Positions 37,076 through 57,530 of a DNA stretch of 64,000 bases are shown here, one piece after another. Source of the stretch: Eledone cirrhosa (lineage: Eukaryota); NCBI GenBank assembly GCA_964016885.1, contig OZ024740.1:275342001-275406000 (forward strand), in the 5' to 3' direction. Made by a program: the position numbers and the translations under genes. The notes beneath the pieces were generated by a model that did no database searches, was not told where the DNA came from, and saw only the letters and a list, made by a program, of their open reading frames with translations. Positions within the stretch are counted from its first letter, which is position 1. Every line of letters starts with the position of its first letter.

Positions 37076-37806
37076 GGTTTTGCTATGTTGGTCTGTGAGA
37101 ATGACTCTGGGTCTCACTCACAGTCAGTGTCCTTTCCCCACCAGAAATGGAGAAGAATTGATTAAGGGACTAGCAACCTTTTTCTCATAGAAATTAATGA
37201 TAGGCTACTGGAACTATTGAAGGACAGACCGATGTTCAGTATAACAGCACGGAATGGAAATAAAGAAGATAAGACAGATCAACAATAACTCATCTCAGTC
37301 ATTTAGACATTAAATCAATGTTAATGTAGTTATGATGTTGTTATTCCTGTTATCAATATACAAAATCTTGTATTTCTTACAAACATGATCTTTTTCTATA
37401 TTTCTTTTATTTATGTTTTTTTTTTTTAGAACTTTTTGAGTATAATGGCCTGAATGGCCCATTGGAAGGGGAAATAAAGTTACTGAAACAAGGTAAGTTT
37501 GGTTCAAACTTTGAAAGGATGGAATGGAAAACAAAATAACTTCTTTTTAATCATTTATTATTTCATTGCTGGTAGAATGGCTAGATTGTAAGACAAAATG
37601 CTTTAGAATAGTTGTTCCAGTTCTTTATAACATATGTTTGAATTGCACTTAGGTCAACTTTGTCTTCCATCCTCCTAGGGTCAATAAACTTCAAGGGTTC
37701 GCTGAAAAGTTCAAAGGCTGACCAAGGTGCTCTCATGGAATGATCAAATGAGGTTTATTTTTCTATTTGGTCCCGAGAAAGAAACATTGCATTTATTAAT
37801 AAGAAG

Positions 37807-40800
37807 GATGGACTACGGAATTCTGGAGAGTTGAAGAGAGAAAAATGTGGACGCTCAGCGACAATGCCAAAGATAAAGCCAAATTCACCTCGTGGACGAG
37901 AATGCAAGCACTCCTCCTTGTTTCGGCCCAGGATGGCTAACATAACCCCCCCCCCCGCGCCCCACCGCTCCCACCCTCCAAACGCAATCCAAAACTTCAG
38001 AGTTGGTACCATGAATGTAGGCACCTTAAAGGGTCGCTCTAACGAGGTTGTAGAAATGCTTGAACGTAAGGAGGTCGATGTTTGTTGTATTCAAGAGACC
38101 AGGTGGAGGGGAGGGTCGGCTAGATTCATCGTGGGTAAAGAACGATGCTATAAGCTTTTCTGGGTGGGAAATGACAATGGGTTGGGTGGGGTAGGAATCA
38201 TGGTAGCAGAAAAGTGGGCAGATAAGATAATAGACGTAAATAGAGTGAACGACAGAATAATTAAAATAAGACTTGTCCTCAATAAAACTACGGTGACAGT
38301 AATATCTGCGTACGCACCCCAATCCGGACTGCCCGGCACTATAAAAGACAGATTCTACGAGACACTGATGCTCACTACCTCCCAAATAACCGACAGTGAC
38401 TATATAGTTATTGCAGGCGACCTAAATGGTCATGTTGGACAACATTGTGACGGCTATGACGGAATCCATGGAGGCTATGGGTTCGGTACTAGAAATGAGG
38501 AAGGCTCCAGAATCCTGGAATTATGCGACGCAAATAACTTAACTATCTGTAACACTAACTTCAAAAAACGAGACAATCACTTGATCACCTATAGATCGGG
38601 GGAACACACAAGCCAGGTAGATTATATCCTTACCAGAAGACGTGACAGAGTGTCTGTTGTTAACACTAAATCCCACCCCCATGAAGAATTCACCCCCCAA
38701 CATAGACTGATAATTAGCGACGTCATAGTCAGGATGAGACGTACTAGACAGCGGAAGAGGACTATCCTCAGGAGAAAAATATGGAAGCTAAAGGACCCCA
38801 TAGCCAGAAATAAATTTCAAAGCATATTACTTGACGCTTTCGACAGTAAGGAAGAGCAATTAGAGTCGTATAATATAGAGGAACAGTGGGAATTCCTGAG
38901 AGCAAACCTGCTGACGGCGGCAGACAAAGTCTGTGGCTGGAGCAGGCCTGTAGGTAGGAGGAGAGTAACATGGTGGTGGAACAGTAAGGTGGAGGAGTCA
39001 ATTAAGGCCAAAAAGCAGGCTTGGAAAGTATGGCGGGATGGGGGAAGTAGAGAAGACTATCAAGTGGCCAGGAGGGAAGCTAGGAGACAAGTGTACTTCG
39101 CAAGAAGGGAAGCAGAGGAAAGAAAGTTCAAGCATGTTCTACAACGTGAGGACCAAAAACGTGAGGTGTTCAGGATTGCCAGGCAATGTGTCAAGGAAAA
39201 CCGTGATATCGTCGGGGAGAAGTGTGTACTTAACGATGATGGCATACTTGCCATCACCGATGCTGATAAGAAGGTAGCTTGGAAGTGTCACTACGAAAGG
39301 CTTCTAAATGAGGAGAACAAATGGGAGAAAGACAGTCTCCCCCAGATCGATCCAATAGAGGGACCAGCAGTGTTAGTTGAAGGTAGTATAATAAGTAAGG
39401 CAATCAAAGATATGAAGACGGGTAAGGCTGCTGGGCCTTCGGAAATAGTTGCTGAGATGCTGAAGGCATCTGGTTCGGTGGGACACACCATGGTCACCCG
39501 GATAGTTAACCAAGTCGTACAGAATGGGGTTGTTCCGAAGGAATGGCGTAGCAGCATCATCATTAACTGCTATAAGGGAAAAGGAGATGCCCTAGATAGG
39601 AGTAACTATAGAGGCATTAAATTAATCGACCAGGTCATGAAGGTCACAGAAAAAGTAATAGCGCAACTAATCAGAGAGAGAATTGATCTAGATGAAATGC
39701 AGTTCGGGTTTGTGTCAGGCAAAAGTACCACAGACGCTCTTTTGATTGTACGACAACTACAGGAGAAGTACCTAGCTAAAAGTAAACCCCTATACTTAGC
39801 TTTCGTCGACTTGGAGAAAGCCTTCGACAGAGTCCCCCGTTCCATTATCTGGTGGTCTCTTAGAAAACTAGGTGTTGACGAATGGCTTGTGAGAGCTATA
39901 CAAGCCATGTATAAAGAAACAGTCAGTAAGGTTAGAATTAACAACGAATATAATGAAGAGTTTAGCGTAAAAGTTGGTGTCCATCAGGGCTCTGTTCTTA
40001 GCCCCCTACTATTTATTATTGCCCTTCAGGCTATAACAGAGGAGTTCAAGACCGGCTGCCCATGGGAACTCCTATACGCAGATGATCTAACGCTCATAGC
40101 TGAATCAATGACCGAACTAGAGAAGAAATTCCAAACATGGAAGCACGGCCTAGAATCAAAAGGCCTTAAAATTAACCTGGCTAAGACTAAAGTTCTAGTT
40201 TGTAGGAAAGAAAATAAGGCGGCGGTCCTATCTGGGAAATGGCCATGCTCAGTGTGTAGGAAAGGCGTAGGTAGAAACTCCATTTTATGTCCCAAATGCA
40301 AAGTATGGGTGCATAAAAGATGTAGTGGGATCACAGGTAAGCTAACTAAGAACATAGATTTTACATGTGGCCGGTGCTCTGGTGCAATAAGTAGCAGCAA
40401 GTGCCCACAAAATACTAGCTCCTTCAACTGCGCAGAGGGTTCTATAGAAATAGTGGACAGCTTCCGTTATCTGGGTGACAAAATCAGCAGTGGGGGAGGG
40501 TGCTCTGAAAGTACAGTAGCTAGAGTCAGAACTGGATGGAAAAAGTTCAGAGAGCTTATACCACTATTAGCCGCTAGAGGGTTCTCCCTAAAAATGAAAG
40601 GCAGGTTATACGATGCCTGCATACGAACAGCAATGCTGCATGGCAGTGAGACCTGGGCATTGTGTGCAGAGGATATACGCAGACTAGAGAGGAACGAAGC
40701 TTGCATGCTCCGCTGGATGTGCAATAGTAATATACGTGAACGGCAAAGCATAAACGAACTAAGGAAAAAATTAGAAATAAGAGGGATCAGATGTTGTTTA

Positions 40801-55979: not shown

Positions 55980-57530
55980 CAGTTCGGCTGAAAAGTTCAT
56001 AGGCTGACTATGAAAGATTGATTTCAGAGTTGTGAATCTTACAGGCATTAATTTCAACTCATCATCATCATTATCATCATCATCAAGGTTTAGCGTCCGT
56101 GTTCCACGCTTGCATGGGTTTGGACGGGGGTTTTCCCACTTGAGGCAAGAGTGGTTGTCTTGCTCGCATAGGACTGTCTGGCAGGTTTTCTACAACTGGA
56201 TGCCCTTCCTAACACCAACCACATTTACAGTGTGGGGCTGGGAGGTTTTTACCGTGTTGCCTACACGGCCACATTACAGCGTGGACTGTCTGGCGGGTTT
56301 TCTACAGCTGGATGCCCTTCCTAACACCAACCACATTTACAGTGTGGGGCTGGGAGGTTTTTACCGTGTTGCCTACACGGCCACATTTACAGCGTGGACT
56401 GTGTGTTTTTTTGTCGTGACACCTACACGATCTCATTTGTTTCGGCCTGGATGCTGTGGCACCAACATAACTTTACATTGAGAGGGGCGGTGTGGATGGG
56501 GTGGGGGTGGTGGGACGGGGGTGTGTTTTGATAGAGATGCCAACTGACTGTAGTAGGTTTTACTTTGTATTTAGGTAAGGCGGGTCTTCTCTATTACTGA
56601 GTACCGCCAAAGGTCTCGGTCCAGTGACATTGTCTTGGAGAGGTGTAAGCGTGTGAGGTCGGAATTTATCATGTCGTCCCAGGTTTTTCTGGGTCTGCCT
56701 ACTCTGTGGCTACCGTCTATCTTTATTGCCCTGCACTTTGTTATACAGCTGTCGTCTTTCATGCGCATCACGTGACCATACCAACGTAGCCTTCTCTCGA
56801 GTAAACAACATCTGATCCCTCTTATTTCTAATTTTTTCCTTAGTTCGTTTATGCTTAGCCGTTCACGTATATTACTATTGCACATCCAGCGGAGCATGCA
56901 AGCTTCGTTCCTCTCTAGTCTGCGTATATCCTCTGCACACAATGCCCAGATCTCACTGCCGTGCAGCATTGCTGTTCGTATGCAGGCATCGTATAACCTG
57001 CCTTTCATTTTTAGGGAGAACCCTTTAGCGGCTAATAGTGGTATAAGCTCTCTGAACTTTTTCCATCCCGTTCTGACTCTAGCTACTGTACTTTCAGAGC
57101 ACCCTCCCCCACTGCTGATTTTGTCACCCAGGTAACGGAAGCTGTCCACTATTTCTATAGAACCCTCTGCGCAATTGAAAGAGCTAGTATTTGTGGGCAC
57201 TTGCTGCTACTTATTGCACCAGAGCACCGGCCACATATAAAAACTATGTTTTTAGTTAGCTTTCCTGTGATCCCACTACATCTTTTATGCACCCATACTT
57301 TGCATTTGGGACATAAAATGGAGTTTCTACCTACGCCTTTCCTACACACTGAGCATGGCCATTTCCCGGAAGGAACCGCCGCCTTATTTTCTTTCCTACA
57401 AACTAAAACTTTAGTCTTAGCCAGGTTAATTTTAATAAAAGGATTGTTCCTTTCTGGGGCCTATGTTGAAAAATAAACCTCATTTAGTTATTCCATGAGA
57501 CTATCTTGGTCAGTCTATGAATTTTTCAGT
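55980..57530. mobile_element. Second copy of the mariner-type MITE, also split by an RTE
   Basis: TIR-like ends cggctgaaaagttcataggctgac (55986) and gtcagtctatgaatttttcag (57509-57529). Halves are homologous to 37700-37800 and 41541-41600. Confidence 0.65.
56061..57435 (-). mobile_element. 5'-truncated copy of the RTE LINE, inserted in a mariner-type MITE
   Basis: Matches ~40166-41540. A 1-bp deletion near 57190 splits the PHD finger (57155-57349) from the C-terminal ORF (56571-57200). (CAT)n tail. Confidence 0.93.

What the first reader, a model, noticed from the sequence alone, without database searches (positions are those of the whole stretch)
37692..57530. Two RTE copies inserted at essentially the same position in two diverged copies of one mariner-type MITE
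Seen: the full RTE lies between ...catttattaataagaag and gaagagttgaaattaatgc. The truncated RTE at 56061-57435, read in its own sense, lies between ...ccttttattaa and gagttgaaattaatgc, in the same orientation relative to the MITE. The empty site survives at 41671-41702 (catttattaataagaagaattgaaattaatgc). The MITE halves are clearly diverged from each other while the RTEs are nearly identical, and the 5' junctions differ. Inference: independent insertions, implying sequence-specific targeting or (GAT)n-tail microhomology priming at the GAAGAG site. RTE-clade elements are not generally considered site-specific.
Basis: partly seen in the sequence, partly recalled or inferred. Interest (0 to 1): 0.72.

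Follow-up and report, generated by a model that had tools for sequence, protein, structure and literature searches.

The report
LINE hot spot inside a MITE
Two jumping-gene copies from different subfamilies sit three letters apart in two copies of a small DNA repeat, at a spot that several related jumping genes also use, but over 99% of this family's copies lie elsewhere, so this is likely an ordinary mild insertion preference rather than targeting of the repeat.

Summary
The RTE copies belong to different subfamilies, and the MITE halves are as diverged as unrelated copies.

The site is a real but soft hot spot. Nine GAT-tailed insertions genome-wide fall in an 11-nt stretch of the MITE, about 6-16 times the average rate.

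It is not MITE targeting:
- Only 2 of 4,410 exact 3' ends of this family sit there, and 0 of 87 sampled flanks are MITE.
- Other GAT-tailed families share the site.
- The MITE's other strand has a hot spot at least as large.
- An unrelated SINE-like repeat has one with 79 insertions.

Hot spots tend to have TT(A) about 11 nt upstream plus 2-nt tail microhomology, like the published RTE signature. A site predicted from that rule failed (2 of 66 rows). Corrections: the 'full' RTE lacks its 5' UTR and start codon, and the 'empty site' is a tandem duplicate within the same MITE. The scan reached the same reading before on a satellite in this genome.

The parts
37694..37806 (+). Locus 1 MITE left arm (consensus 5-117, 88% identical to the 202-bp consensus; outer TIR decayed)
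37807..41542 (+). RTE copy W1, young subfamily, 5'-truncated at the start of the ORF (no 5' UTR, no initiator ATG), ends in (GAT)9
37807..41031 (+). Uninterrupted reading frame of 1074 codons: APE endonuclease, reverse transcriptase, PHD finger
40246..40377 (+). PHD finger just after the Pfam RT domain (PF00628, E 5.8e-06)
41215..41431 (+). Two 105-nt tandem repeats in the RTE 3' UTR (also in W2 at 56171-56387)
37803..37806 (+). 5' copy of the 4-nt target duplication GAAG (3' copy 41541-41544, its GA shared with the tail)
   Evidence: sequence
41541..41597 (+). Locus 1 MITE right part (consensus 114-170)
41591..41760 (+). Internal tandem duplicate of the same MITE (consensus 21-190) with the right TIR; holds the unused site at 41671-41702
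55984..56060 (-). Locus 2 MITE right part (consensus 117-194)
56059..57435 (-). RTE copy W2, older subfamily, 5'-truncated; TTAA microhomology at the 5' join, 6-bp target deletion, GA microhomology at the tail
57432..57529 (-). Locus 2 MITE left arm (consensus 13-110, 89% identical to consensus)

Best explanation
Two RTE-type LINE copies from different subfamilies inserted independently, 3 nt apart, into two old MITE copies at a spot that GAT-tailed RTEs use about 6-16 times more often than average, likely because it fits their general soft cutting and priming preference and not because they target the MITE. Shown: independence, enrichment, shared use by several families, other hot spots, and dispersal of the family. 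Inferred: the APE domain prefers AT-rich DNA with TT(A) about one helical turn upstream of the nick, and 1-2 bases of the nicked strand pair with the (GAU)n RNA tail to prime reverse transcription. The 5' ends then join by microhomology, giving short duplications or deletions. The MITE core holds a TTATTAATAA palindrome that would offer such a site on both strands. The 15-kb spacing is likely a coincidence, helped by high local density of both elements.
For: Independence: at 16 alignment columns W1 and W2 differ and each allele is shared with 5-19 of 27 other copies; no column unites W1 and W2 privately; W1 groups with distant copies at support 0.999 and is 99.5% identical to them versus 97.4% to W2. 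MITE halves are 79-82% identical against a mean of 82-83% for unrelated pairs, sharing at most 1 non-consensus base. Enrichment: 8 of 4,418 sites with an exact 16-mer carry a tail in 11 nt. Not specific: 4,410 exact 3' ends; 0 of 87 sampled flanks are MITE and 36 of 87 are dinucleotide repeats; the window's other three copies flank AT-rich DNA or (AT)n. The 9 plus-strand loci come from several tail types. The minus strand has 12 fetched junctions in one 11-nt stretch, 8 at one base. A third cluster of 4 lies at consensus 79-81. The SINE-like repeat has 79 of 250,696 copies hit at one base, with variable truncations and several tail types. Signature: TT 11 nt upstream in 21 of 32 MITE junctions (null 0.145); overlap with the tail of at least 2 nt in 21 of 32 (null 0.20). 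This matches the T-stretch and microhomology model of PMC6007223 (sections 15, 18) and PMC13295347 (Results).
Against: The TTA rule was drawn after seeing the data, and its one prospective test failed: the predicted SINE minus-strand site had 2 of 66 rows by eye and 0 of 30 fetched loci. A rule-fitting site at MITE +137 had no hits in two searches that covered it. On distinct sites the signal is weak (TT 7 of 17, p 0.007; TTA 3 of 17, p 0.02). Thirty non-repeat 5' flanks show only a faint T excess (15 of 30 at -10). The family lacks the long TSDs typical of published RTEs. The only two insertions of this exact family found at the site are both in this window (0.036 expected, post hoc p 6e-4). 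The expected number of neighbouring MITE pairs both filled at this site is only 0.001-0.09 under assumed copy numbers, so the proximity is not fully explained.
Confidence: 0.8

Rival explanations
1. The RTE specifically targets this MITE site, as Tx1- or R1-clade elements target multicopy sequences.
For: 9 loci at one 11-nt stretch genome-wide; both exact-family hits at that stretch lie 15 kb apart, above expectation.
Against: 2 of 4,410 ends; 0 of 87 sampled flanks; several families share the site; the same family also hits the SINE site (4 of 30 loci, 3 of them apparent duplicates); 0 exact-family hits at the minus-strand MITE site.
Confidence: 0.03
2. One insertion was copied locally: an old duplication, transposition of an RTE-carrying MITE, or ectopic gap repair from locus 1 into locus 2 ended by microhomology.
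For: 15-kb proximity; the 5' microhomology and target deletion at W2 resemble aborted gap repair.
Against: W1 and W2 differ at 16 subfamily-diagnostic columns and share no private allele. The MITE flanks are no more alike than unrelated copies, even next to the tail. The 3' junctions differ by 3 nt. Outer flanks share only dispersed-repeat matches of 68-81%.
Confidence: 0.03
3. The hot spots come mainly from tail-target microhomology and AT-rich, easily melted or fragile DNA (priming at existing nicks), with little sequence reading by the endonuclease.
For: Overlap of at least 2 nt in 21 of 32 junctions; heavy use of (AT)n flanks; short or absent TSDs and frequent target deletions; failure of the TTA rule at a GC-rich spacer.
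Against: A site with a full 3-nt GAT match was barely used, so microhomology alone does not suffice either. The single-base sharpness and strand asymmetry at the SINE (about 50 of 100 listed rows at one base on one strand, diffuse on the other) point to a directional nick preference.
Confidence: 0.12
4. Pure chance with no site preference.
For: The pair was picked from many windows; both elements are locally dense.
Against: Junctions cluster without the window pair: 6 of 6 in 11 of 31 positions (p 0.002) and 4 of 4 in 11 of 61 positions (p 0.001).
Confidence: 0.02

Closest known systems
RTE-clade LINEs and SINEs with the T-stretch / Tn-TA insertion signature (plant RTEs and Au SINEs, Bov-B, Sauria SINE; PMC6007223, PMC13295347)
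   Same: Single APE-RT ORF, microsatellite tail, T-rich bases about one helical turn upstream of the junction, 1-2 nt overlap between tail and target, dispersed insertion.
   Different: TSDs here are mostly 0-9 nt or target deletions rather than 7-15 bp. The tail is (GAT)n. The ORF has a PHD finger. The upstream rule was not sufficient in a prospective test.
Recurrent L1/Alu integration sites in NF1 (PMC3219598, abstract read)
   Same: Independent insertions reuse one site and cluster locally, although the element is not site-specific.
   Different: L1 poly(A) machinery in a single-copy human gene; here the reused site is a position in a multicopy repeat.
Target-specific APE retrotransposons of the Tx1 and R1 clades (PMC4640811 passages; Tx1L/Tx2L in Xenopus DNA transposons recalled, not checked)
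   Same: APE-type non-LTR element found at a fixed position of a multicopy sequence, a transposon in this case.
   Different: Those families are described as inserting specifically in their target. Here about 0.05% of copies are there, and several families share the site.
Octopus RTE-2_OV (PMC9115989 passages)
   Same: Single ORF of about 1,100 aa with endonuclease, RT and a zinc finger; long UTRs.
   Different: No sequence comparison was made; the paper's main text has no occurrence of 'target site'.

Membership tests
RTE-clade non-LTR retrotransposon | Single ORF with APE endonuclease and RT | tested here: met
   Pfam Exo_endo_phos and RVT_1 in one frame; SMNV, QET, GDLNGH, DYI and YADD motifs present; no other ORF upstream within W1
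RTE-clade non-LTR retrotransposon | 3' microsatellite tail and frequent 5' truncation | tested here: met
   (GAT)n tails and variable truncation across sampled copies
RTE-clade non-LTR retrotransposon | RT phylogeny within the RTE clade | not tested
   Homologs at 40-52% identity are mostly unnamed, none labelled with a clade; no named reference tree built; the label rests on architecture
RTE Tn-TA insertion signature | T stretch about 10 nt upstream of the cut | tested here: inconclusive
   Met post hoc (TT in 21 of 32, null 0.145); prospective site failed (2 of 66 rows); weak in 30 non-repeat flanks
RTE Tn-TA insertion signature | 1-2 nt overlap of tail and target | tested here: met
   Overlap of at least 2 nt in 21 of 32 junctions versus null 0.20
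RTE Tn-TA insertion signature | TSDs of 7-15 bp | tested here: not met
   Mostly 0-9 nt or deletions at MITE and SINE sites; few credible TSDs among 217 tails
Target-specific non-LTR retrotransposon (Tx1/R1 type) | Most copies at one target site | tested here: not met
   2 of 4,410 ends; 0 of 87 sampled flanks
Target-specific non-LTR retrotransposon (Tx1/R1 type) | Endonuclease cuts the target specifically in vitro | not testable with these tools
   Needs a nicking assay
Tc1/mariner-type MITE | Short, non-coding, TIRs, TA at both ends, high copy number | tested here: met
   202-bp consensus from 30 copies with TA ends and TIRs of about 33 bp; 4,418 exact 16-mer hits
Tc1/mariner-type MITE | Shares TIRs with an autonomous mariner transposase element | tested here: inconclusive
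   0 of the 30 best PF01359 loci (of 150 scored) carry this TIR around the transposase

The most novel reading that the evidence does not exclude
The PHD-bearing, GAT-tailed RTE lineage reads a defined, strand-specific bipartite target with single-base precision (upstream TTA, an AT-rich spacer, then a tail-matching dinucleotide), perhaps helped by the PHD insert. High-copy repeats then act as natural reporter substrates from which an invertebrate RTE endonuclease code can be read and tested.
Probability: 0.25. Interest if true: 0.45.

Novelty: new member of a known kind. Interest (0 to 1): 0.22.

Why it matters
It shows that same-site LINE insertions in a repeat need not mean targeting or shared descent, which matters for annotation and for using insertions as homoplasy-free markers. 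It gives mapped strong and weak target sites for an invertebrate RTE lineage, including a site that fits the simple rule but is barely used, so the published RTE insertion model can be tested directly. It is not a new site-specific retrotransposon.

Tried and rejected
Local duplication or gene conversion: rejected by subfamily-diagnostic columns and MITE divergence. A composite RTE-SINE amplifying as a unit, as the cause of the SINE hot spot: rejected by variable insert lengths (30-1257 nt), left ends and tail types. Apparent minus-strand MITE clusters at consensus 154-164 and SINE clusters at 85-86: rejected as mutated native sequence without an RTE end. TSD harvesting from 217 tails gave 21 candidates, mostly spurious, and was not used. 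The first signature test had off-by-one minus-strand coordinates; its MITE figures are superseded. The prospective TTA rule failed. The search for an autonomous mariner partner found none among 30 loci. The protein homolog search gave no clade names. Literature searches listed no paper on an RTE targeting a MITE; the library is incomplete and no supplements were read. No complex or structure prediction was run, since no claim needed one.

Full report
Setting. The window lies on contig C1 of a 3.0-Gb genome. I did not determine the organism. I read octopus papers only because the repeat content recalled cephalopods.

Observation. All quoted junctions are in the sequence. The host repeat is a 202-bp element with TA ends and TIRs of about 33 bp; its consensus comes from 30 of 42 exact empty-site hits. 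An internal 16-mer has 4,418 exact matches. Copy W1 carries one open frame with APE, RT and a PHD finger. It is not full length: longer copies extend at least 190 nt further 5' and have ATG ATG just upstream of base 37807. W1 has a 4-nt duplication. W2 has 4-nt 5' microhomology and a 6-bp target deletion. The 3' junctions are 3 nt apart. The 'empty site' lies in a 143-bp tandem duplicate of the locus-1 MITE; similar internal duplications occur in other copies (L040, L043, L060).

Independence. I aligned W1 and W2 with 27 other copies covering the shared 1.35 kb: 11 from the first pattern hits and 16 from the best matches to W2; shorter copies were dropped. At 16 columns the two differ and each allele is shared with 5-19 other copies. 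W2 has 14 fully private changes. No column unites the two privately. W1 is 99.5% identical to distant copies and 97.4% to W2. The MITE halves are 79-82% identical, against 82-83% for unrelated pairs, and outer flanks share only dispersed repeats. Duplication, conversion and an RTE-carrying MITE are therefore rejected.

Enrichment at the site. A search for a GAT tail within 30 nt upstream of an exact MITE anchor gave 8 distinct loci, all in an 11-nt stretch; another anchor added a ninth. With independent anchors, 5 of 5 direct junctions and 3 of 3 plus-strand junctions fell there. Eight of 4,418 sites is 1.8e-3. The background is 1.1e-4 using the 61,907 motif rows, or 2.8e-4 using my rough estimate of 150,000 tails, so enrichment is about 6-16 times. 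The nine inserts come from several tail types, some only about 70-83% like W1.

Not targeting. The exact family 3' end occurs 4,410 times. Only W1 and W2 of the nine site loci carry it. Among 87 copies examined (first-listed on C1, so not random; duplicates collapsed; 2 dropped with the 5' end out of range), 0 have a MITE flank and 36 have a dinucleotide repeat. The MITE has other hot spots. On the minus strand, 12 fetched junctions lie in one 11-nt stretch, 8 at one base, and about 8 more unfetched rows look the same by eye. On the plus strand, 4 lie at 79-81. The two main hot spots flank a TTATTAATAA palindrome. In an unrelated 188-bp SINE-like repeat (window 59637-59822), about 50 of 100 listed rows (counted by eye, of 146) join at one base. 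In total 79 of 250,696 copies are hit there, about 4-10 times background, by independent insertions of several families including this one.

Mechanism. Among 32 curated MITE junctions (rows without an RTE-type end or without a direct join were mostly left out by eye), 21 have TT 11 nt upstream (null 0.145), 15 have TTA (null 0.035) and 21 overlap the tail by at least 2 nt (null 0.20). On 17 distinct sites the figures are 7, 3 and 7. This resembles the model of PMC6007223 (abstract, sections 15 and 18 read) and PMC13295347 (abstract and Results read): a T stretch one helical turn upstream, with cleavage or priming influenced by the tail repeat. Against it: a prediction written beforehand failed, with 2 of 66 rows by eye and 0 of 30 loci at the predicted SINE minus-strand site and no other pile-up (rows read by eye, also scattered). 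A rule-fitting MITE site at +137 was unused. Thirty non-repeat flanks show only a faint T excess. Long TSDs are absent. The rule is thus associated but not sufficient. The failed site has a GC-rich spacer, so AT-richness or bendability likely also counts (inference).

Proximity. The region is rich in both elements: 3 exact family ends in the window versus 0.09 expected, and 7 MITE 16-mers in 264 kb versus about 0.4 expected. Even so, the expected number of neighbouring MITE pairs both filled is 0.001-0.09 for this site and 0.015-1 for any MITE hot spot, under assumed copy numbers and clumping. Over all repeat families some such pair is plausible, but I could not count it. This remains the least explained part.

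Comparison. PMC4640811 (passages read) states that most target-specific families belong to early-branched, Tx1 and R1 groups. This element fails the defining test of that class and works like a dispersed RTE with a soft signature. PMC3219598 (abstract read) shows reuse of sites by non-specific L1 machinery. PMC9115989 and PMC13282606 (passages read) describe octopus RTEs without target-site analysis in the passages found. Five searches listed no report of an RTE targeting a MITE. Supplements were not read and may hold target-site tables. Earlier notes of this scan reached the same reading for a satellite in this genome; my flanks from that satellite look consistent with it, but I did not count them.

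Verdict. A real, independent double insertion at a mild generic hot spot; ordinary RTE behaviour with a useful mapped set of sites. Interest 0.22.

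Noticed in passing
window 59637-59822 (consensus position 47-49 of the SINE-like repeat): Single-base, strand-specific hot spot for GAT-tailed RTEs in a repeat with 250,696 exact 17-mer copies; 79 insertions.
   Followed up: yes
window 40246-40377: PHD finger inside the RTE ORF after the Pfam RT domain; many homologs also carry PF00628. Noted earlier by the scan.
   Followed up: partly
window 47914-50268 (minus): 784-aa open frame with RT and GIY-YIG domains, a Penelope-like architecture (label from recalled knowledge).
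   Followed up: no
window 29540-30417, 31675-32832, 50931-51625 (all minus): Three more truncated copies of the RTE family or a sister subfamily, with AT-rich or (AT)n 3' flanks; the window is about 30 times richer in this family than the genome average.
   Followed up: partly
L110 (584-1030 on its minus strand); L060 (1500-1850): MITE pieces amplified as tandem arrays (109-bp and 160-bp periods), a possible route from MITE to minisatellite.
   Followed up: no
L476-L478; L372/L373; L025-L028: Identical RTE insertion junctions repeated within tens to hundreds of kb, apparently segmental or tandem duplications after insertion; they inflate junction counts slightly.
   Followed up: partly
L437-L441, L446-L449: A separate dispersed repeat in which a short GAT run without an RTE end precedes a tRNA B-box-like motif, with the same upstream sequence at 9 fetched loci.
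   Followed up: no
L095 (640-1400 on its minus strand): A GAT-tailed insert whose 3' UTR unit of about 48 nt has expanded into a long tandem array inside the MITE.
   Followed up: no
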